In this document: in pieces, positions 728 to 8,374 of the stretch
Layout of the letters: the number at the start of each line of letters is the position of its first letter
Position numbering within the stretch: the stretch's first letter is position 1
From: a virus
Lineage: Duplodnaviria; Heunggongvirae; Uroviricota; Caudoviricetes
Virus record (IMG/VR): IMGVR_UViG_2690316286_000006
Direction: 5' to 3' (one strand)
DNA: 8,374 nt
Notes under the pieces: model-generated
What the model saw: the letters and a program-made list of their open reading frames with translations, nothing else
What the model was told of the DNA's origin: nothing
Database searches by the model: none
Position numbers and translations under genes: made by a program

Positions 728-1030
728 ATGAAGATCATCTCAGTTAAAACACTCAGGGATTTTTGGGCGGAGAATCCCGATGCAGAACAACCGCTAAGGG
801 CATGGGTGGATGAGGCAGCAAAAGCTGACTGGAAAAGCCCGGCAGACATTAAGGCACAATACCGAACGGCTAGTATATTGAAAAGCCGGCGTGTGGTATT
901 CAACATAAAAGGTAATCATTACCGTTTAATTGTTGCAATTGCGTATCAGCGAGGATGGGTATTTGTTAAATTCATCGGAAGCCACAAGGAATACGATGCC
1001 ATTGATGCTGATACCATCGAACTGGAGTAA
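728..1030 (+). CDS. higB: type II toxin HigB (RelE/ParE-fold mRNA interferase, YgjN-type), 100 aa
   Basis: Translation MKIISVKTLRDFWAENPD...VVFNIKGNHYRLIVAIAYQRGWVFVKFIGSHKEYD aligns from recall with E. coli HigB (VFN...HKEYD C-terminal motif, N-terminal MxxIxxKxLxD). Toxin-first order with antitoxin 2 nt downstream. The track ORF starts at TTG 683; the ATG at 728 matches the homologue N-terminus. Confidence 0.85.
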   Translation: MKIISVKTLRDFWAENPDAEQPLRAWVDEAAKADWKSPADIKAQYRTASILKSRRVVFNIKGNHYRLIVAIAYQRGWVFVKFIGSHKEYDAIDADTIELE

Positions 1031-1032
1031 GC

Positions 1033-1392
1033 ATGAACATCAAACCTATTCGTACAGAGCAAGATTATGAAGCCGCGTTGCGTGCTGTTGAGCCTATGTT
1101 CGACAATGAACCGGAAATTAACACGCCTGAGGGGGATTTCTTTGAGGTGATGTGTTTGCTAATAGAGGAATATGAAAAAAAACATTATCCCATTGAGCCA
1201 CCATCCCCAATTGAAGCTATAAGATTTCGCATGGAACAGCAGGGGCTGACCGTGAAAGATTTGGAACCCGCAATTGGGAAAAAAAATCGGGTTTACGAGG
1301 TGTTGAATGGCACCAGAAGCCTTACGTTACCAATGATTCGCCGTCTTCATAATCAATTTGGTATCCCCTTGGAAAGCTTGGTGGGATTATAA
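1033..1392 (+). CDS. higA: HigA antitoxin, HTH (XRE-type) DNA-binding protein, 119 aa
   Basis: ATG 2 nt after the higB stop; GGAG inside the higB 3' end acts as SD. C-terminal ...RSLTLPMIRRLHNQFGIPLESL matches the HigA HTH region (compare E. coli HigA ...LTLEHAKKLATRFGISPALF, recalled). Confidence 0.85.
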   Translation: MNIKPIRTEQDYEAALRAVEPMFDNEPEINTPEGDFFEVMCLLIEEYEKKHYPIEPPSPIEAIRFRMEQQGLTVKDLEPAIGKKNRVYEVLNGTRSLTLPMIRRLHNQFGIPLESLVGL

Positions 1393-2230: not shown

Positions 2231-2639
2231 ACACATCCGCATGGCGATGAATACCTGGGCGCATCCGGACGGTGAGAAAGTACCGGCTGCAGAGATTACC
2301 AAAGCGTATTTTGAACTGGGAATGACGTTTCCGGAGCTGTACGACGATTCACATCCGGAAGCCCTGGCTCGCAATACTCAGAAAATTTTCCGCTGGGTGG
2401 AGAAAGACACCCCTGATGCAGTTGAAAAAATTCAGGCGTTGTTACCAGCGATCGAAAAGGCAATGCCACCTTTGCTGGTGGCCAGAATGCGCAGCCACAG
2501 TTCAGCTTATTTTCGGGAGCTGGTGGAGACGCGGGAACGACTGGTGAGAGATGCTGATGATTTTGTCGCAGTGGCGATCGCCGGTTTCAACCAGATGAAT
2601 CGTGGTGGCCCGGCGGGAAATGCCGTGGCTGTACATTGA
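2214..2639 (+). CDS. ydaT: YdaT-family protein (toxic early protein of Rac-like prophages), 141 aa
   Basis: Begins MKIRHEHIRMAMN..., matching the N-terminus of E. coli YdaT as I recall it. GGAG SD at 2203-2206; overlaps the ydaS 3' end by 17 nt. The reading frame is confirmed in-window: against the divergent copy at 3540-3857 most differences are synonymous third-position changes. Confidence 0.85.
   Translation: MKIRHEHIRMAMNTWAHPDGEKVPAAEITKAYFELGMTFPELYDDSHPEALARNTQKIFRWVEKDTPDAVEKIQALLPAIEKAMPPLLVARMRSHSSAYFRELVETRERLVRDADDFVAVAIAGFNQMNRGGPAGNAVAVH
2474..2526 (+). other. two Chi octamers (5'-GCTGGTGG-3') 45 bp apart within ydaT
   Basis: Exact GCTGGTGG at 2474-2481 and 2519-2526, same orientation. 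The duplicate block has the second octamer at 4392-4399; the divergent allele keeps only one (CCGCTGGTGGCT, around 3697-3704). Confidence 0.6.
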
Positions 2640-2649
2640 GGAAGCATTA

Positions 2650-3381
2650 ATGAAATCATCGACGCTTGAGAAAAACCAGAAGGTTTTCAGCCCCTTTAAT
2701 AAAAATCTCGGGGGAGTGAAATTCGTAAAGACCATCAACAGAATAACTACCGCAATTTTCGCATGCCTTCTCATATGCCATGAAGGCATGGCTGAGTCTT
2801 CGCGCTTTCCTGGCGCTAAGCATTCTTTCGAGTTCAGCGATATCACGCGGGCTAATTTGCACTATGTTGAGAAGCCCTTTTCTGGCAAGGTTAATTTTTT
2901 GCATCAATTCGGCCGCGATAGGATCTGCGATTGCGTTGAATTCCTTGCGTCTGTCCCTGTTTACTGCCAGCCAATGACCGAAACAGATACCCAACCCAAA
3001 GGTAATCACGGTCCATATGAACGAAATGAGAGCTGGATTCGTATTGAACAAGGTAACAAATTCACTCCAGATAGTATCCATGGTTCTCGCCGATTACTCC
3101 TGGTTCTGCTGGCTGGCGCTGTGATTGTATTTCCGTCAGGGGTTTACTTTGGTCTAAAGGCAGTATGCAGACGTGATTATGCCCGAAGACGTTATACAGG
3201 GAAAGCACCGGTTCTTGGTGTTCTTTCAGTCCTGGTAATCCCGAAGAAAGTGAAATGTCGCAGATGGCAGATCTGGGAGCAGCGTCAATGGTTCCGTGAT
3301 ATGAACCTTAGTCACGGTATTGATATTGCGTACCAGGATACCCGGAACTGGAAAAAACTGGTAGCGGAGCGCTGGTATTAA
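2650..3381 (+). CDS. hypothetical protein, 243 aa (ORF X), in accessory cassette between ydaT and the initiator; coding status uncertain
   Basis: ATG 2650 with GAGGAAG SD 5 nt upstream, 10 nt after the ydaT stop; stop TAA 3379-3381 lies 2 nt before the initiator ATG (operon-like packing). The last 100 codons (3082-3381) lie outside the minus-strand ORF and use CTG-rich Leu codons. Against: W, C and R content is unusually high, and the ORF is in exact antisense register with the 141-aa minus ORF. The track ORF starts at GTG 2602 inside ydaT. Confidence 0.4.
   Translation: MKSSTLEKNQKVFSPFNKNLGGVKFVKTINRITTAIFACLLICHEGMAESSRFPGAKHSFEFSDITRANLHYVEKPFSGKVNFLHQFGRDRICDCVEFLASVPVYCQPMTETDTQPKGNHGPYERNESWIRIEQGNKFTPDSIHGSRRLLLVLLAGAVIVFPSGVYFGLKAVCRRDYARRRYTGKAPVLGVLSVLVIPKKVKCRRWQIWEQRQWFRDMNLSHGIDIAYQDTRNWKKLVAERWY
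2656..3081 (-). CDS. hypothetical membrane-anchored protein, 141 aa (N-terminal TM helix ALISFIWTVITFGLGICFGHWLAV, charged helical C-terminal domain); coding status uncertain
   Basis: ATG at 3079-3081 (minus); stop TGA at 2656-2658, 16 nt from the ydaT stop (convergent). Protein-like layout with one hydrophobic helix followed by amphipathic charged segments. Candidate -10 TACAAT on the minus strand (plus 3124-3129). The SD is weak or distant (AGGAG 15 nt upstream). Frequent AGA/AGG Arg and CTT/CTC Leu codons. Exact antisense register with ORF X. Confidence 0.4.
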   Translation of the reverse strand: MDTIWSEFVTLFNTNPALISFIWTVITFGLGICFGHWLAVNRDRRKEFNAIADPIAAELMQKINLARKGLLNIVQISPRDIAELERMLSARKARRLSHAFMAYEKACENCGSYSVDGLYEFHSPEIFIKGAENLLVFLKRR

Positions 3382-3383
3382 TT

Positions 3384-3529
3384 ATGGCTACTTCATGGCT
3401 CAGATTATGGCATGACATGCCAAATGATCCCAAGTGGCGAACAATTTCCAGGGTGTCAGGGCAGCCAATCGCAACGGTGATGGCGGTTTATGTTCACCTT
3501 CTGGTGAGTGCGTCACGAAATGTCACGAC
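3384..3529 (+). CDS. O-like replication initiator, N-terminal fragment cut by N-gap (MATSWLRLWHDMPNDPKWRTISRVSGQPIATVMAVYVHLLVSASRNVT...)
   Basis: ATG 3384 two nt after the ORF X stop. Identical to 5257-5402. Ends in the first two GTCACG iteron copies (3512-3527) before the gap. Confidence 0.6.
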
Positions 3530-3539
3530 NNNNNNNNNN
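3530..3539. other. assembly gap (10 N)
   Basis: Run of n. Sequence on either side belongs to different genes (initiator 5' part, then ydaT 3' part), so it is a scaffold join, not a small sequencing hole. Confidence 0.95.
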
Positions 3540-3857
3540 ATGACGTTTCCGGTTCTGCATAACGACAGCAAGCACAACACGCTTTATCTCAACACCCAAA
3601 AGATTTTCCGTTGGCTGGATAAAGACACCCCTGACGCTGTTGAAAAAATTCAGGCGTTGTTACCTGCGATCGAAAGGGCAATGCCACCTCCGCTGGTGGC
3701 TCGAATGCGCAGCCACAGTTCAGCTTATTTTCGGGAACTGGTGGAGACGCATGAACGACTGGTGAGAGACGCTGATGATTTTGTCGCAGTGGCAATCGCC
3801 GGTTTCAATCAGATGAACCGTGGTGGCCCGGCAGGAAATGCTGTGGCAGTACATTGA
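3540..3857 (+). CDS. ydaT: ydaT-like gene, 3' fragment (C-terminal 105 aa) of a divergent allele/paralogue; 5' end lost in gap
   Basis: MTFPVLHNDSKHNTLYLNTQKIFRWLDKDTPDAVEKIQALLPAIERAMPPPLVARMRSHSSAYFRELVETHERLVRDADDFVAVAIAGFNQMNRGGPAGNAVAVH parallels ydaT residues 37-141 with mainly synonymous DNA changes in the conserved part; stop TGA 3855-3857. Confidence 0.65.
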   Translation: MTFPVLHNDSKHNTLYLNTQKIFRWLDKDTPDAVEKIQALLPAIERAMPPPLVARMRSHSSAYFRELVETHERLVRDADDFVAVAIAGFNQMNRGGPAGNAVAVH

Positions 3858-3928
3858 CTGACAATAGCCATATCGAATCGCTCCCGGCAACTCGTGAGTA
3901 AAAAGATTCGGTATCAGAAGAGGTGAGT

Positions 3929-4370
3929 ATGGCTAACGCCTGGCTCAGATTATGGCATGACATGCCAAATGACCCTAAGTGGCGAACAATTGCCAGGGTG
4001 TCAGGGCAGCCAATTGCAACAGTGATGGCAGTGTATATCCACCTCCTGGTGAGCGCGTCACGAAATGTCACGCGAGGTCACATTGATGTCACGACAGAAG
4101 ATTTGGCAAGTGCGCTCGACGTGACAGAAGAGGTAATTGATTCAATTTTGCAGACGATGCAGGGGCGGGTACTTGATGGTGATTTAATCACTGGATGGGA
4201 AAAACGCCAGGTGCTTAAAGAGGACAACGGCAATATTTCGCAAACCGCAAAATCTCCTGCAGAGCGCAAGAGGGCGCAGCGAGAGAGGGAAAGAAAGCGG
4301 GAACAAAATGGCGATTGTCACGGCGCGTCACGAAATGTCACGCACATGTCACGACGAGTCACGACAGATA
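3929..4370 (+). CDS. O-like replication initiator, divergent allele, 5' part (MANAWLRLWHDMPNDPKWRTIARVSGQPIATVMAVYIHLL...); 3' end lost in gap
   Basis: ATG 3929 with GAGGTG upstream, 71 bp after the ydaT-like stop and with no cassette in between. Homologous to 5257 onwards with mostly third-position differences. Contains iteron clusters at 4057-4093 (4 copies) and 4317-4363 (5 copies). Confidence 0.65.
4057..4093 (+). repeat. iteron cluster 1 of the divergent allele: 4 direct GTCAC(G/A) copies at 10-11 bp spacing
   Basis: GTCACG at 4057, 4067 and 4088, GTCACA at 4077. The corresponding cluster in the other allele (5385-5442) has 6 copies. Confidence 0.7.
4317..4363 (+). repeat. iteron cluster 2 of the divergent allele: 5 direct GTCACG copies at 10-11 bp spacing
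   Basis: GTCACG at 4317, 4327, 4337, 4348 and 4358; near-identical to 5819-5865. Confidence 0.7.
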
Positions 4371-4381
4371 NNNNNNNNNNN
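4371..4381. other. assembly gap (11 N)
   Basis: Run of n. Joins the initiator mid-gene to the ydaT 3' end, so it is a scaffold join. Confidence 0.95.
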
Positions 4382-4512
4382 ATTTTCGGGAGCTGGTGGA
4401 GACGCGGGAACGACTGGTGAGAGATGCTGATGATTTTGTCGCAGTGGCGATCGCCGGTTTCAACCAGATGAATCGTGGTGGCCCGGCGGGAAATGCCGTG
4501 GCTGTACATTGA
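4382..4512 (+). CDS. ydaT: ydaT 3' fragment, exact duplicate of 2509-2639
   Basis: Identical by eye to the end of the full ydaT gene; start of the redundant block 4382-5402. Confidence 0.6.
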
Positions 4513-4522
4513 GGAAGCATTA

Positions 4523-5254
4523 ATGAAATCATCGACGCTTGAGAAAAACCAGAAGGTTTTCAGCCCCTTTAATAAAAATCTCGGGGGAGTGAAATTCGTA
4601 AAGACCATCAACAGAATAACTACCGCAATTTTCGCATGCCTTCTCATATGCCATGAAGGCATGGCTGAGTCTTCGCGCTTTCCTGGCGCTAAGCATTCTT
4701 TCGAGTTCAGCGATATCACGCGGGCTAATTTGCACTATGTTGAGAAGCCCTTTTCTGGCAAGGTTAATTTTTTGCATCAATTCGGCCGCGATAGGATCTG
4801 CGATTGCGTTGAATTCCTTGCGTCTGTCCCTGTTTACTGCCAGCCAATGACCGAAACAGATACCCAACCCAAAGGTAATCACGGTCCATATGAACGAAAT
4901 GAGAGCTGGATTCGTATTGAACAAGGTAACAAATTCACTCCAGATAGTATCCATGGTTCTCGCCGATTACTCCTGGTTCTGCTGGCTGGCGCTGTGATTG
5001 TATTTCCGTCAGGGGTTTACTTTGGTCTAAAGGCAGTATGCAGACGTGATTATGCCCGAAGACGTTATACAGGGAAAGCACCGGTTCTTGGTGTTCTTTC
5101 AGTCCTGGTAATCCCGAAGAAAGTGAAATGTCGCAGATGGCAGATCTGGGAGCAGCGTCAATGGTTCCGTGATATGAACCTTAGTCACGGTATTGATATT
5201 GCGTACCAGGATACCCGGAACTGGAAAAAACTGGTAGCGGAGCGCTGGTATTAA
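4523..5254 (+). CDS. ORF X, exact duplicate of 2650-3381
   Basis: Offset of +1873 relative to the first copy; the track shows identical translations. Confidence 0.4.
   Translation: MKSSTLEKNQKVFSPFNKNLGGVKFVKTINRITTAIFACLLICHEGMAESSRFPGAKHSFEFSDITRANLHYVEKPFSGKVNFLHQFGRDRICDCVEFLASVPVYCQPMTETDTQPKGNHGPYERNESWIRIEQGNKFTPDSIHGSRRLLLVLLAGAVIVFPSGVYFGLKAVCRRDYARRRYTGKAPVLGVLSVLVIPKKVKCRRWQIWEQRQWFRDMNLSHGIDIAYQDTRNWKKLVAERWY
4529..4954 (-). CDS. 141-aa membrane-anchored hypothetical protein, exact duplicate of 2656-3081
   Basis: Offset of +1873; identical translation in the track. Confidence 0.4.
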   Translation of the reverse strand: MDTIWSEFVTLFNTNPALISFIWTVITFGLGICFGHWLAVNRDRRKEFNAIADPIAAELMQKINLARKGLLNIVQISPRDIAELERMLSARKARRLSHAFMAYEKACENCGSYSVDGLYEFHSPEIFIKGAENLLVFLKRR

Positions 5255-5256
5255 TT

Positions 5257-5524
5257 ATGGCTACTTCATGGCTCAGATTATGGCATGACATGCCAAATGA
5301 TCCCAAGTGGCGAACAATTTCCAGGGTGTCAGGGCAGCCAATCGCAACGGTGATGGCGGTTTATGTTCACCTTCTGGTGAGTGCGTCACGAAATGTCACG
5401 ACATGTCACGACGTGTCACGACGTGGTCACATTGATGTCACGACAGAAGATTTGGCAAGTGCGCTCGACGTGACAGAAGAGTCAATTGATTCAATTTTGC
5501 GGGCAATGCAGGGGCGGGTACTTG
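5257..5524 (+). CDS. O-like replication initiator, 5' part (N-terminal domain plus iteron-encoding linker); interrupted by N-gap
   Basis: ATG 5257 two nt after the ORF X stop. N-terminus MATSWLRLWHDMPNDPKWRTI... conserved against the 3929 allele with synonymous differences. Contains iteron cluster 5385-5442. Initiator assignment rests on position upstream of the P-like gene and on the internal iterons, not on recognised homology to lambda O. Confidence 0.65.
5385..5442 (+). repeat. iteron cluster 1: 6 direct GTCAC(G/A) copies at 10-11 bp spacing (candidate ori element inside the initiator gene)
   Basis: GTCACG at 5385, 5395, 5405, 5415 and 5437, GTCACA at 5426. Helical-turn phasing. Encodes ...SRNVTTCHDVSRRGHIDVTT... 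in the initiator frame. Confidence 0.7.
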
Positions 5525-5597
5525 NNNNNNNNNNNNNNNNNNNNNNNNNNNNNNNNNNNNNNNNNNNNNNNNNNNNNNNNNNNNNNNNNNNNNNNNN
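5525..5597. other. assembly gap (73 N)
   Basis: Run of n. The last about 78 bp before the gap and the first about 80 bp after it are two variants of the same segment (EDLASALDVTEESIDSILRAMQGRVL versus EDLASALDVTEEVIDSILQTMQGRVL), so the join duplicates sequence. Confidence 0.95.
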
Positions 5598-6243
5598 AGA
5601 AGATTTGGCAAGTGCGCTCGACGTGACAGAAGAGGTAATTGATTCAATTTTGCAGACGATGCAGGGGCGGGTACTTGATGGAGATTTAATCACCGGATGG
5701 GAAAAACGCCAGGTGCTTAAAGAGGACAACGGCAATATTTCGCAAACCGCAAAATCTCCTGCAGAGCGCAAGAGGGCGCAGCGAGAGAGGGAAAGAAAGC
5801 GGGAACAAAATGGCGATTGTCACGGCGCGTCACGAAATGTCACGCACATGTCACGACGAGTCACGACAGATACAGATAAAGATACAGATAAAGAAGATCA
5901 AAACACTATGGTCCATGGCGTAAAAAACGCCACGAACCAGGCAGGGGATGTTCAGACCGTCAATCCTGGTCAGCCAGCAGGCTCGACACCGGAAGCCGAT
6001 TCAGCGTATGCGCTGAAAGCCGATTCGGGCGCTGTGCAGCAGGTGATGACCGCAAGGCCGGAGCAATCACTCCAACTGCAGCAGCCTGAAGCCGATTCCG
6101 CCATTCAGCGGGAAGCCGATCGGGTAGCCCCGGAAAACACCGGGCAGCCTGTGGGACGAGTGGATTATCCGGATGTGTTCGAACAGGTCTGGCGGGAATA
6201 CCCGTTGCGTGCCGGGGCAAACCCGAAGAAATCCGCATTCAGT
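5598..6243 (+). CDS. O-like replication initiator, middle part (linker with iteron cluster 2, low-complexity PEADSA repeats, start of a C-terminal domain ...DYPDVFEQVWREYPLRAGANPKKSAF); bounded by gaps
   Basis: Continuous open frame; 5' part nearly identical to 4096-4370 of the divergent allele. Motif W-x-x-YP-x-R-x-G is reminiscent of C-terminal domains of phage replication initiators (recollection, not checked). Confidence 0.55.
5819..5892 (+). repeat. iteron cluster 2 (5 GTCACG copies at 10-11 bp spacing) followed by a tandem 12-mer GATACAGATAAA x2
   Basis: GTCACG at 5819, 5829, 5839, 5850 and 5860; 12-mer at 5869-5880 and 5881-5892 (encodes DTDKDTDK). The same 12-mer-derived sequence restarts the scaffold after the big gap (6557-6577). 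Confidence 0.7.
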
Positions 6244-6556
6244 NNNNNNNNNNNNNNNNNNNNNNNNNNNNNNNNNNNNNNNNNNNNNNNNNNNNNNNNN
6301 NNNNNNNNNNNNNNNNNNNNNNNNNNNNNNNNNNNNNNNNNNNNNNNNNNNNNNNNNNNNNNNNNNNNNNNNNNNNNNNNNNNNNNNNNNNNNNNNNNNN
6401 NNNNNNNNNNNNNNNNNNNNNNNNNNNNNNNNNNNNNNNNNNNNNNNNNNNNNNNNNNNNNNNNNNNNNNNNNNNNNNNNNNNNNNNNNNNNNNNNNNNN
6501 NNNNNNNNNNNNNNNNNNNNNNNNNNNNNNNNNNNNNNNNNNNNNNNNNNNNNNNN
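6244..6556. other. assembly gap (313 N)
   Basis: Run of n. The flanks are in different reading frames and the right flank restarts at the GATAAAGATACAGATAAAGAA repeat already seen at 5872-5892, so continuity across the gap is unknown. Confidence 0.95.
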
Positions 6557-7138
6557 GATAAAGATACAGATAAAGAATTAAACCCCACACATAACGCGCG
6601 CGTGCGCGAGAGTGCTCCGACCAGCGAGTCGAACGGTACGCCGTTGCAGGTGGCGGAACCTGAATTTCCGGACGGCCTGAGTGAACCCATCGGGAAATTT
6701 CCGATGACCGATGGCTGGCATCCGTCGCCGGATTTTCGACGGCGGGCTGCATTGTGGGGAGTGGCTCTGCCGGAGCCGGAATTTACACCTGCTGAACTTG
6801 CCGCATTCCGGGATTACTGGATGGCGGAGGGCAAAGTGTTCACGCAGGTTCAGTGGGAGCAGAAATTCGCCCGTCACGTAAATCACGTCAGGGCACAGGT
6901 CAAACCAGTCAGCAAGGGGGGCAGCCATGCAGCAGCACCAGGTGGCACCGCATCACGGGCAGTTCAGGAAATTCGGGCAGCACGTGAGCAGTGGGAACGT
7001 GAAAACGGATTTATCAGCGACGGAAACGGCCTGGAAGCTGTGGGAACTCATGGGGGAGGTTTATTCGAACCGCTGGACCCGGAAGAACGGAGCCGCACCT
7101 TCGAAGCTCTGGATTGCACAGATTGGCGCGATGACTGA
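6557..7138 (+). CDS. O-like replication initiator, C-terminal part (or an alternative version of it); contains ...[36 protein letters not shown]... motif
   Basis: Open frame from the gap edge to TGA 7136-7138. Overlaps the P-like gene by 212 nt, so the last about 70 codons may be overlap rather than conserved initiator sequence. Confidence 0.5.
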
Positions 7139-7592
7139 GCAGCAAATCCGGCAGGTCTGCCGCCAGTGCATGGAGCGTTGTCGGGCGGGTGAAACATGGC
7201 CTCCGGACCTGGCTGAGTTTGTGGCGCTGATTTCGGAAAGCGGAGCCAATCCATTCGGTCTGACGGTGGATGCCGTGATGGAAGAGTACCGTCGCTGGCG
7301 CAATGAGTCCTGGCGATACGACGGGAGCGATAAATACCCGTGGCCCCAGCCCGTGCTGTATCACATCTGCCTCGAGATGCGTTCAAAAGGGATTGAGCGG
7401 CAGATGACCGAAGGGGAGTTAAAACGACTTGCAGAACGGCAACTGACGAAATGGGCAAAGCATGTTGGTAATGGCTTCAGTGTTCCGCCCATCCGGCGAC
7501 AACTGGCAGGACCAAAACGTCCTGCGGGACCAACGCCAATTGAGTTGCTGAAACAGGAGTATGAACGCCGGAAAGCGGCTGGTTTTGTTTGA
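6927..7592 (+). CDS. lambda P-like replication protein (DnaB helicase loader family), 221 aa
   Basis: ATG 6927 with AAGGGGGG SD 5 nt upstream. Residues about 36-200 parallel lambda P as I recall it ([11 protein letters not shown] versus PSPGQFVAWC; [21 protein letters not shown]...[17 protein letters not shown] versus YPDAESYPWKSNAHYWLVTNLY...ELRRKAADELVHMTARI). Alternative start ATG 7050. Confidence 0.75.
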
Positions 7593-7626
7593 GTTGAGAA
7601 GTGATTTTTACCGGGAGAAAAATTTT

Positions 7627-7839
7627 ATGGAGACCGTTTTTGACGCACTGAAAGCAATGGGAAAAGCCTCTTCACAGGAAGTTGCAGCACGCCTGGGCAT
7701 GACCCGGGATGAAGCAATCAACGAGCTGTGGAAACTGAAGCGTCGGGGTGAGGCAGACAACAAAGGCCCGATGTGGTGGCTGACATCCGGCGATGAGGAA
7801 AAACAGGCCGGGTATCGTGAAACCCCGTTGTGGATTTAA
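7627..7839 (+). CDS. small hypothetical phage protein, 70 aa (METVFDALKAMGKASSQEVAARLGMTRDEAINELWKLKRRGEADNKGPMWWLTSGDEEKQAGYRETPLWI)
   Basis: ATG 7627 with GGGAG 9 nt upstream, 35 nt after the P-like stop. The track ORF from 7561 overlaps the P-like 3' end and its first 22 residues look like read-through. Possible small winged-helix-like protein (guess). Confidence 0.55.
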   Translation: METVFDALKAMGKASSQEVAARLGMTRDEAINELWKLKRRGEADNKGPMWWLTSGDEEKQAGYRETPLWI

Positions 7840-8138
7840 TCCCACAGAGAGGGACTGAGAGTGAAAAAACAGCCAGACAGGAAGCGTCCGGAACAGAAAA
7901 CACGGGTCAGCATGCAGATGTGACAGAAGTTGTTCAGCCAATCCCTGCGTTTACTGAAAAACAGCAGGATTATGTGATTCTGCCATCACTGCATGCGGCA
8001 AACCGTGAGCTGCGCCGGGCAAAAGGTCAGGTCCAGAAGTGGGAGCGTATCTGCGCCGCGCTACGGGAGCTGAATAAACACCGGGACGTTGTCCGGCAGA
8101 TTGTCGACTCTTCCCGCCGTGTTGCATCGGAAAAGTGA
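7830..8138 (+). CDS. hypothetical phage protein, up to 102 aa; start uncertain (GTG 7830 or GTG 7920)
   Basis: Only long ORF in this interval; no in-frame ATG. N-terminal 30 residues are low-complexity. The C-terminal part ...LRRAKGQVQKWERICAALRELNKHRDVVRQIVDSSRR looks helical and protein-like. Overlaps the previous gene by 10 nt if the GTG at 7830 is used. Confidence 0.4.
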   Translation: MDLIPQRGTESEKTARQEASGTENTGQHADVTEVVQPIPAFTEKQQDYVILPSLHAANRELRRAKGQVQKWERICAALRELNKHRDVVRQIVDSSRRVASEK

Positions 8139-8153
8139 TTGCCGGAGGCGCTT

Positions 8154-8374
8154 ATGGCAAAAGTATTTACACAGGAAGAGCGGGAAAAATTAAAGGGGCG
8201 GGTTGTTGAACTTGTACGTCTTAGCGGTCGCGAGACGTTACGGCAACTGGAAGCGAAAACAGGTGCGACAAGATATCTGTTGAGCGTTCTCGCCAGAGAG
8301 CTGGTTGCCAGTGGTGATGTATACAACTCTGACTACGGGTTATTTCCCTCTGAACAGGCTCGTAAGGACTGGCA
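8154..8374 (+). CDS. hypothetical phage protein, 5' part (MAKVFTQEEREKLKGRVVELVRLSGRETLRQLEAKTGATRYLLSVLARELVASGDVYNSDYGLFPSEQARKDW...), runs off the window
   Basis: ATG 8154 with GGAGG SD 5 nt upstream, 15 nt after the previous stop; open to the end of the window. Not in the ORF track because no stop is reached. Confidence 0.5.
   Translation, partial: MAKVFTQEEREKLKGRVVELVRLSGRETLRQLEAKTGATRYLLSVLARELVASGDVYNSDYGLFPSEQARKDW

What the first reader, a model, noticed from the sequence alone, without database searches (positions are those of the whole stretch)
5385..5892. Two arrays of helically phased GTCACG iterons inside the initiator gene: candidate replication origin, with copy-number difference between alleles
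Cluster 1 (5385-5442, 6 copies) and cluster 2 (5819-5865, 5 copies) are direct repeats of GTCACG spaced 10-11 bp apart, lying inside the coding sequence of the initiator linker. Cluster 2 is followed by a tandem 12-mer and an A-rich stretch. This parallels lambda, where ori iterons lie within gene O, but the unit here is a short 10-bp-phased repeat rather than 19-bp iterons. The divergent allele has only 4 copies in cluster 1 (4057-4093), hinting at iteron gain or loss.
Basis: partly seen in the sequence, partly recalled or inferred. Interest (0 to 1): 0.55.

Follow-up and report, generated by a model that had tools for sequence, protein, structure and literature searches.

The report
Phage replication origin inside initiator gene
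The short GTCACG repeats are real and are conserved as DNA rather than as protein, so they are most likely the binding sites that mark a prophage's replication origin inside its own initiator gene. This layout is well known, but this widespread family seems never to have been described, and the window itself is a mis-joined scaffold of two prophages.

Summary
GTCACG occurs 26 times in the window against 3.2 expected, in arrays spaced 10-11 bp apart, followed by an A-rich 12-mer repeat.

The window is a scaffold of five contigs from two prophages. Cluster 1 (5385-5442) and cluster 2 (5819-5865) belong to different initiator genes, so the "alleles" are paralogous prophage copies.

Comparative evidence supports an origin made of iterons:
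- The hexamer is read in all three frames.
- In 24 diverged homologues, synonymous codons are frozen inside the hexamers (0.98 against 0.53 outside).
- About 60 homologous genes from Proteobacteria and Acidobacteria carry two arrays at the same gene offsets. The unit differs by clade (GTCACG, GTAACG, CGAACG, GCAACG, GTGACG) but is the same in both arrays in 55 of 58 loci.
- The stretch after array 2 is the least stable 40-mer of the gene.
- In three complete phage genomes, the arrays occur nowhere else.

The N-domain models as a winged helix closest to DnaD-NTD. The C-terminus is DnaT-like, and the next gene is lambda-P-like.

This is the same design as lambda ori/O, SPP1 oriL/gp38 and pSK41 Rep. 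No experiment exists, and I found no published description. I rate it a new member of a known kind.

The parts
5385..5442 (+). Iteron array 1 of prophage-1 initiator gene: 6 units (5 GTCACG + 1 GTCACA), spacing 10,10,10,11,11. A truncated duplicate lies at contig end 3512-3529.
   Evidence: identical in closed genome L001 6129-6186
5469..5474 (-). Single inverted unit (CGTGAC on the + strand) about 30 bp 3' of array 1. Equivalents lie at 4120-4125 and 5622-5627.
   Evidence: A reverse-complement unit lies within 84 nt 3' of array 1 in 17 of 28 GTCACG-type loci. The V64 codon is GTG in 21 of 21.
4057..4093 (+). Iteron array 1 of prophage-2 (Tritos-like) initiator gene: 4 units, 21 bp shorter than the 6-unit version.
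4317..4363 (+). Iteron array 2 of prophage-2 gene (5 units), first copy, at the end of contig B.
5819..5865 (+). Iteron array 2 of prophage-2 gene (5 units), second copy on contig D. This is the cluster 2 of the finding.
5866..5905 (+). A/purine-rich AGATA(A/C) repeat directly 3' of array 2 (prophage 2): candidate DNA unwinding element.
   Evidence: In Tritos the least stable 40-mer of the gene starts here.
6557..6590 (+). The same A-rich element of the prophage-1 gene (GATAAAGATACAGATAAAGAATTAAA). Its array 2 lies in the preceding N gap.
   Evidence: It is the least stable 40-mer of the L001 gene: -45.1 against a gene mean of -57.7 kcal/mol.
5257..5524 (+). 5' part of the prophage-1 initiator gene (N-terminal winged-helix domain), cut by an N run.
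   Evidence: 100% identical to L001 6001-6268; PHROG replication initiation protein
3929..4369 (+). 5' 441 nt of the prophage-2 initiator gene (N-domain, basic linker and array 2).
6557..7138 (+). 3' part of the prophage-1 initiator gene, encoding the DnaT-like DNA-binding domain.
   Evidence: Pfam PF17948, 65.6 bits against cut-off 25; 100% identical to L001
7131..7592 (+). Lambda-P-like helicase loader gene, overlapping the initiator stop.
   Evidence: Pfam PF06992, 57.6 bits against cut-off 26; PHROG 109 P-like helicase loader

Best explanation
The hexamer arrays are iterons, that is, binding sites for the initiator encoded by the same gene. Together with the adjacent A-rich segment they form the prophage's replication origin.

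Proposed mechanism:
1. The N-terminal winged-helix domain binds one 6-bp core per helical turn, head to tail on one face of the DNA, at two arrays about 190-250 bp apart.
2. The resulting nucleoprotein complex destabilises the low-stability AGATAA-type stretch immediately 3' of array 2.
3. The variable C-terminal domain (DnaT-like in the E. coli gene) recruits the helicase loader encoded downstream (lambda-P-like here; DnaC-like or DnaB-like genes in relatives). That loader brings DnaB to the opened DNA.

What is shown here: the arrays exist, they are under DNA-level selection, their unit type changes together in both arrays, they sit next to the least stable DNA of the gene, the domain folds are as stated, and the gene neighbours are as stated.

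What is inferred: that the N-domain is the binder, that unwinding occurs in the A-rich stretch, and that replication starts here.
For: - Enrichment and phasing: 26 copies against 3.2 expected. Across relatives the spacings are 10 bp (192 times) and 11 bp (49 times).
- Not a peptide repeat: units fall in codon phases 0, 1 and 2 and are read as V-T, x-H-x or S-R.
- Synonymous-site constraint in 24 genes with median 69% nucleotide identity: major-codon frequency is 0.98 inside hexamers against 0.53 at 35 equally conserved residues outside (Mann-Whitney p = 7e-6). The spacer codon R48 uses four codons.
- Position: two arrays lie at the same gene offsets in phages of E. coli, Aeromonas, Pseudomonas and Ralstonia, and in most of the usable genome loci among the 70 returned by the genome scan.
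- Five unit classes exist, and the same unit is found in both arrays in 55 of 58 loci. Classes follow the N-domain tree.
- A-rich stretch: the 40 nt after array 2 average 64% AT and 73% purine, against 45% AT for the gene. It is the least stable 40-mer of the gene in four of four cases. Genome-wide it ranks in the top 0.1% in Firinga and top 0.05% in pAEv1818.
- In three complete phage genomes, the only places with at least 3 units in 60 bp are these two arrays.
- Precedents for origins inside the initiator gene: SPP1 oriL in gene 38 (PMC6316719), pSK41 Rep boxes inside rep (PMC5703833), and ori-lambda in O (PMC5509034).
Against: - There is no experimental evidence of binding or origin activity for any member, and I found no published description.
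- Because the sites lie inside the gene, iteron class and protein clade are inherited together. Covariation therefore cannot by itself identify the N-domain as the binder.
- Between the GTCACG and CGAACG classes, I found no class-specific N-domain residues outside the loop that the iterons themselves encode, apart from residue 101.
- Some lineages with a clearly homologous N-domain have no arrays (L036, L038, L046, L055, L057). The domain can therefore exist without them, or their origin lies elsewhere.
Confidence: 0.78

Rival explanations
1. The arrays are binding sites for a protein (the initiator itself or another phage or host factor) with a role other than origin function. Examples are autoregulation, roadblocking of transcription through the early operon, or replication control by handcuffing, with the true unwinding site elsewhere.
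For: The DNA-level constraint and concerted unit switching show only that a sequence-specific factor reads the sites, not what follows. Array 1 has no adjacent A-rich stretch. Array-free homologues exist.
Against: Array 2 is invariably joined to the least stable DNA of the gene. The arrays sit in the gene of a replication initiator next to a helicase loader, which is the arrangement proven for lambda, SPP1 and pSK41. No other clusters exist in three complete genomes that could serve as the real origin.
Confidence: 0.12
2. The repeats are selectively neutral products of replication slippage and gene conversion, or they are conserved microhomologies that promote module exchange between the N- and C-terminal halves of mosaic phage genes.
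For: Copy number varies: 4-6 in array 1 and 3-9 in array 2. Array 2 with the AGATAA stretch coincides with the breakpoint where N- and C-terminal modules are reshuffled: homology to Rac-SA53 starts at aa 145, and homology to Evi and Tritos ends at aa 151. Assemblies break here.
Against: Neutral slippage does not explain perfect retention of the same hexamer and the same gene offsets over a median 69% nucleotide identity, with frozen synonymous sites beside freely varying spacers. It also does not explain identical units in two arrays 190-250 bp apart. A recombination role would be a by-product of conservation, not its cause.
Confidence: 0.06
3. The repeats reflect a repetitive peptide under protein-level selection, or an RNA or ssDNA structure.
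For: The encoded loop (SRNVTRGH..VT) is conserved as protein within the GTCACG class.
Against: A 10/11-bp period puts successive units in different frames, so there is no peptide repeat. Codon choice is fixed beyond what the amino acids require. Homologues without arrays have an unrelated loop of similar length. There are no Rfam hits, and folding is no better than shuffles (z = +0.87).
Confidence: 0.02

Closest known systems
Bacteriophage lambda ori within gene O (O initiator plus P helicase loader)
   Same: The origin is embedded in the initiator's own coding sequence. Direct repeats are followed by an A/T-rich stretch in the region between the DNA-binding N-terminal part and the loader-binding C-terminal part. 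The next gene is a P-family helicase loader (PF06992 met). The locus sits in the same place in a cI-cro-cII-type early operon. The statement that ori-lambda lies in O is from PMC5509034.
   Different: The initiator gives no match to any lambda O family. From my own knowledge, lambda has four roughly 19-bp iterons. Here the units are 6-bp cores once per helical turn, all in one orientation, in two arrays, one of which lies inside the DNA-binding domain's coding region. The C-terminal domain is DnaT-like.
Bacillus phage SPP1 oriL within gene 38 (replisome organiser G38P/gp38)
   Same: The origin-binding 'replisome organiser' binds direct repeats located inside its own gene, next to an AT-rich DNA unwinding element. 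It then recruits a loader and a DnaB-type helicase (PMC6316719). NCBI names the E. coli proteins 'phage replisome organizer'.
   Different: Sequence relationship to Pfam Phage_rep_org_N is below threshold (E = 0.11; 12.9 bits against 23.3). The hosts are Gram-negative. No second distant origin copy like oriR was found. The repeat unit and spacing are different.
RepA_N plasmid initiators (pSK41 Rep) with Rep boxes inside rep
   Different: There is no detectable sequence homology. This is a phage, not a plasmid. There are two arrays rather than one central set of four boxes. The downstream partner is a helicase loader, whereas pSK41 Rep recruits primase.
DopC/DopE (domesticated O-like plus P-like pair in Cellvibrionales and Oceanospirillales)
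   Same: The two-gene architecture is the same: an initiator-like protein with a DnaT C-terminal motif, followed by a lambda-P-like protein (PMC5509034).
   Different: DopC has an HTH_36 N-terminus, and its authors found no iteron-like repeats. Here the N-domain is different and the iterons are prominent.

Membership tests
Iteron-type phage origin embedded in the initiator gene (lambda / SPP1 / pSK41 design) | Multiple direct repeats of one short sequence, clustered and non-random | tested here: met
   26 against 3.2 expected; TRF arrays; the only clusters in three complete phage genomes
Iteron-type phage origin embedded in the initiator gene (lambda / SPP1 / pSK41 design) | Repeats lie inside the coding sequence of a replication initiator | tested here: met
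   Gene L001 6001-7041 matches PHROG 'replication initiation protein' families (best labelled match phrog_1408, E 2.7e-112) and has a DnaT domain. The arrays lie at gene positions about 128-186 and 409-456.
Iteron-type phage origin embedded in the initiator gene (lambda / SPP1 / pSK41 design) | Adjacent A/T-rich, easily melted segment (DNA unwinding element) | tested here: met
   64% AT against 45% for the gene; the least stable 40-mer of the gene in 4 of 4 cases. Actual unwinding was not tested.
Iteron-type phage origin embedded in the initiator gene (lambda / SPP1 / pSK41 design) | Repeats conserved as DNA, independently of the encoded protein | tested here: met
   Three reading frames; frozen synonymous codons, 0.98 against 0.53, p = 7e-6; concerted unit classes in 55 of 58 loci
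Iteron-type phage origin embedded in the initiator gene (lambda / SPP1 / pSK41 design) | The initiator binds the repeats specifically | not testable with these tools
   Only the winged-helix fold and covariation with clade are available. EMSA or footprinting is needed.
Iteron-type phage origin embedded in the initiator gene (lambda / SPP1 / pSK41 design) | The fragment supports initiator-dependent replication | not testable with these tools
   Needs cloning into an ori-less vector or marker-frequency analysis.
Lambda O protein family | Sequence match to a lambda O replication-protein model | tested here: not met
   Pfam returns only PF17948 (DnaT) for the full protein at E <= 0.01. The N-domain alone gives no O-family hit even at E <= 10.
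Phage replisome organiser N-terminal domain (Pfam PF09681) / DnaD-like winged helix | Match to PF09681 above the gathering score | tested here: not met
   12.9 bits against cut-off 23.3, E = 0.11, although residues 5-78 align to profile positions 1-78
Phage replisome organiser N-terminal domain (Pfam PF09681) / DnaD-like winged helix | DnaD-NTD-type winged-helix fold | tested here: inconclusive
DnaT DNA-binding domain (PF17948) | Match above the gathering score in the C-terminal half | tested here: met
   65.6 bits against 25, residues 201-267 of the prophage-1 protein. Not present in the Tritos-like prophage-2 protein.
Lambda P helicase loader (PF06992) | Match above the gathering score in the downstream gene | tested here: met
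   57.6 bits against 26; PHROG 109, E 3e-54

The most novel reading that the evidence does not exclude
Array 1 may do two jobs at once. The same nucleotides would be the initiator's binding sites and would also encode the loop (residues about 43-55, just before the winged helix-turn-helix) that sets which hexamer the protein recognises. A change of iteron sequence would then rewrite the recognition loop in the same step, giving a self-referential site-reader pair that could generate new origin specificities (incompatibility groups) abruptly.

The evidence does not exclude this. Between the GTCACG and CGAACG classes, the only N-domain positions that are class-specific at 80% or more are those encoded by the iterons themselves, plus residue 101.
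Probability: 0.07. Interest if true: 0.85.

Novelty: new member of a known kind. Interest (0 to 1): 0.45.

Why it matters
The gene family is present in 2183 of 5426 complete E. coli genomes, in Stx-associated prophages, and in prophages across Proteobacteria. Even so, I found no description of its origin.

The work gives a defined cis element and a clear test: a fragment of about 400 bp plus two proteins.

Knowing the origin and its five or more unit classes would help in several ways:
- predicting replication compatibility between co-resident prophages;
- building replicons for non-model Proteobacteria;
- explaining why short-read assemblies break in this gene.

It is also a clean example of a DNA signal overprinted on a coding sequence, with copy-number changes restricted to 21 bp (two helical turns, seven codons).

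Tried and rejected
- Literature: nine full-text searches (GTCACG or TGTCACG with iteron, origin or phage; replisome organizer with iterons; DnaT with phage iterons; Stx-phage replication-region papers; oriJ of Rac). None describes these repeats. The phage D3 genome paper could not be read under the PMC id I recalled, which I could not verify.
- The Pf-5 'iterons' paper concerns an unrelated plasmid-like oriV.
- Sequence search of the N-domain profile against PDB gave no hits at E <= 1. Foldseek against PDB gave nothing at E <= 0.001.
- RNA or ssDNA structure: no Rfam hit, and folding is no better than shuffles.
- Specificity-determining residues: I looked for N-domain residues that track iteron class and found none outside the iteron-encoded loop, apart from residue 101.
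- Inverted unit 3' of array 1: tested for covariation with class. It is clear only in the GTCACG class (17 of 28) and is not general.
- I considered and rejected a pac or terminase site (wrong gene context) and a peptide repeat (frames).
- Gilvimarinus locus L017: I checked whether it is the domesticated DopC. It is not; it has a different C-terminus in a prophage-like context.

Full report
**What is in the window**

The 8374-base window is not a contiguous genome segment. It is five contigs joined by N runs at 3530-3539, 4370-4380, 5525-5597 and 6244-6556.
- Contig C (4381-5524) repeats the end of contig A exactly (2509-3529).
- A/C and E (6557-8374) are 100% identical to one prophage of the closed genome E. 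coli CFSAN029787 (locus L001). There the initiator is a single 346-aa gene (L001 6001-7041).
- B (3540-4369) and D (5598-6243) are 100% and 98.6% identical to the replication gene of Escherichia phage Tritos. They therefore come from a second, related prophage.
- ORF 5257-6561 is thus a scaffold chimera.
- Contigs A and B end inside the repeats discussed here, and contig E begins inside them. Many database proteins of this family are 'partial'. Both observations fit assemblies collapsing at sequence shared between co-resident prophages.

**Check of the observation**

- GTCACG occurs 26 times against 3.2 +/- 1.95 expected, with none of 200 shuffles reaching 26.
- Cluster 1 (5385-5442) has five exact units plus GTCACA at 5426, spaced 10,10,10,11,11.
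- Cluster 2 (5819-5865) has five exact units spaced 10,10,11,10.
- TRF finds both arrays and a perfect 12-mer, AGATACAGATAA x 2.2, at 5868-5894.
- The four-unit version is at 4057-4093.
- All of this also holds in closed genomes and phage records, so it is not an assembly artefact.
- The two clusters cited belong to different genes, but each gene has both arrays. The prophage-1 gene has its own five-unit array 2 at L001 6409-6458, which falls in a gap of the window.

**The repeats are a DNA signal, not a protein signal**

- Because the period is 10-11 bp, successive units fall in different codon phases. They are translated as V-T, x-H-x or S-R, so there is no peptide repeat.
- I compared 24 GTCACG-type genes from Enterobacteria, Aeromonas, Pseudomonas, Bordetella, Chromobacterium, Gilvimarinus and others (nucleotide identity 62-100%, median 69%). 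Invariant residues outside the repeats use synonymous codons freely. For example, R6 uses six codons, and P12 and V31 use four each.
- Codons overlapping hexamers are fixed: A42 GCG 22/24, S43 TCA 23/24, V46 GTC 24/24, T47 ACG 24/24, G49 GGT 24/24, H50 CAC 23/23, V53 GTC 24/24, T54 ACG 23/24. The spacer codon R48 uses four codons.
- Major-codon frequency is 0.98 inside hexamers against 0.53 outside (n = 8 and 35; Mann-Whitney p = 7e-6).

**Conservation and covariation across relatives**

- An alignment-guided scan returned 70 genome loci (Gamma-, Beta- and Alphaproteobacteria, and Acidobacteria MAGs) and 80 viral contigs.
- Most loci carry two arrays at the same offsets, about +128 to +190 and about +350 to +460 of the gene. 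Spacings are 10 bp (192 cases), 11 bp (49) or 20-21 bp (19).
- The unit differs by clade. All units share the core NNNACG.

| Unit | Where found |
|---|---|
| GTCACG | 29 loci |
| CGAACG | 17 loci |
| GTAACG | 6 loci |
| GCAACG | 4 loci, including Ralstonia phage Firinga, Cupriavidus and Burkholderia |
| GTGACG | 4-5 loci, depending on the criterion |

- In 55 of the 58 loci with at least two copies in each zone, both arrays use the same unit.
- Classes follow the N-domain tree built without the iteron-encoded residues: mean p-distance is 0.33 within a class and 0.50 between classes.
- A concerted change of 6-12 dispersed copies, read in different frames in two places, is what selection by one sequence-specific reader predicts.

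**The adjacent element**

- Whatever the unit class, array 2 runs straight into an A- and purine-rich stretch of the (C)AGATAAAGATAAAGA or AGAAGAGAAGA type. Its first 40 nt average 64% AT and 73% purine, against 45% AT for the gene.
- By nearest-neighbour energies this is the least stable 40-mer of the initiator gene in all four loci tested: the CFSAN029787 prophage, Tritos, Firinga and pAEv1818. It is about 3.5 SD below the gene mean.
- It ranks 41st of 39,705 windows in the whole Firinga genome and 22nd of 40,769 in pAEv1818.
- In the three complete phage genomes, the only places with at least three units within 60 bp are the two arrays.

**The protein and its neighbours**

- The prophage-1 protein has a DnaT DNA-binding domain at residues 201-267 (PF17948, 65.6 bits). 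The overlapping downstream gene is lambda-P-like (PF06992, 57.6 bits). PHROGs call them a replication initiation protein and a P-like helicase loader.
- The N-domain has no Pfam family. Phage_rep_org_N scores only E = 0.11.
- An AlphaFold2 model (mean pLDDT 75; about 90 or higher over most of the domain core, residues 11-40 and 51-90) gives three helices, a loop at residues 46-55, then a helix-turn-helix with a beta hairpin. The basic region that encodes array 2 is disordered.
- Array 1 therefore encodes the end of helix 3 and a loop. Array 2 encodes the linker.
- The N-domain with its arrays is combined with different C-termini and different downstream partners: P-like in E. coli, DnaC-like in Aeromonas, and a DnaB-like helicase in Ralstonia. 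This is the modular logic of a replisome organiser.

**Most likely mechanism**

1. The initiator's winged-helix domain binds one hexamer per helical turn, head to tail on one face of the DNA, at both arrays.
2. The complex melts the adjacent low-stability stretch.
3. The C-terminal domain brings in the loader-helicase complex.

Only the anatomy, the selection signatures and the domain assignments are shown here. Binding, unwinding and initiation are inferred by analogy with three systems:
- SPP1, where gp38 binds direct repeats of oriL inside gene 38 next to an AT-rich unwinding element (PMC6316719);
- pSK41, where a DnaD-like N-terminal domain binds Rep boxes inside rep and the origin-encoded peptide is a dispensable linker (PMC5703833);
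- lambda, where ori lies in O and P lies downstream (PMC5509034).

My confidence that these are origin iterons is about 0.78.

**Copy number**

- The 6-unit and 4-unit versions of array 1 differ by 21 bp, which is two units or seven codons (TCHDVSR-type insert).
- Among 80 close relatives, array 1 has 4-6 units and array 2 has 3-9. The clear within-array differences (array 1 with 4 versus 6 units; array 2 with 3, 5 and 9 units) are multiples of two units.
- My reading is that 21 bp is the smallest step compatible with both the reading frame and two turns of the helix.

**Caveats and unexplained points**

- Because the sites lie inside the gene, site class and protein clade are necessarily co-inherited.
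- Between the GTCACG and CGAACG classes, the N-domain consensus is nearly the same apart from the loop encoded by array 1 itself and residue 101. Where the specificity resides is unexplained. The loop may be the specificity determinant, which is the speculative 'novel case'.
- Some lineages (L036, L038, L046, L055, L057) keep the N-domain and the DK-repeat stretch but have no arrays.
- The inverted unit 3' of array 1 is common only in the GTCACG class.

**Novelty**

An origin inside the initiator gene, with iterons and an AT-rich element, is textbook. NCBI and PHROGs already label the protein a replisome organiser or initiator. Within the searchable literature I found no description of these arrays, their classes or the origin of this family. 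I rate it a new member of a known kind, of moderate interest: it is common in E. coli (2183 of 5426 complete genomes) and directly testable.

Noticed in passing
window 3530-3539, 4370-4380, 5525-5597, 6244-6556; duplicate 2509-3529 = 4382-5402: The window is a linearised scaffold of five contigs from two related prophages. One segment is present twice, and ORF 5257-6561 is chimeric. Contigs A and B end inside the iteron / A-rich repeats, and contig E begins inside them.
   Followed up: yes
window 728-1030 and 1033-1392 (+): A HigB-family toxin and HTH antitoxin pair sits immediately upstream of the repressor gene of the prophage. It is annotated as such in the identical closed-genome locus.
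   Followed up: no
window 2650-3381 (+) versus 2656-3081 (-); duplicated at 4523-5254 / 4529-4954: Two long ORFs overlap on opposite strands between the YdaT-like gene and the initiator. RefSeq annotates the + strand one as a hypothetical protein (243 aa), which has no Pfam match.
   Followed up: partly
L036, L038, L046 (Entomomonas / Ventosimonas MAGs), L055, L057: Clear homologues of the N-domain have no hexamer arrays at all. L036, L038 and L046 still carry the GATAAA/DK repeat stretch. Their loop reads 'SEERG..' instead of the iteron-encoded peptide.
   Followed up: partly
L056 (Serratia MAG) and L062 (Pantoea) about +325 to +370 of the gene: The same N-domain is fused to a different C-terminal part (YYVY..GIS.NPWAR motif). 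It has short CTACG/CGTAG repeats at 10-11 bp in place of array 2.
   Followed up: no
L027 (Erwinia phyllosphaerae) gene +158 to +179 and +410 to +449: GTCACG units overlap at 5-bp spacing (CGTCACGTCACGTCAC), twice the usual density.
   Followed up: no
all loci, 0-40 nt after array 2; window 5866-5905 and 6557-6590: The motif (C)AGATAAAGATAAAGA, of period 6 and encoding D-K / D-T repeats, is shared across different iteron classes. This suggests a common element read by something other than the class-specific binder, or simply an unwinding element.
   Followed up: partly
N-domain residues 1-110 across classes (alignment): GTCACG, GTAACG, CGAACG and array-free groups have almost the same N-domain consensus outside the iteron-encoded loop. 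The determinant of hexamer specificity is not evident.
   Followed up: partly
protein hits P0001-P0120: A large share of E. coli database entries for this protein are 'partial', often on contigs of 300-4000 bp. This gene therefore seems to be a frequent assembly breakpoint.
   Followed up: no
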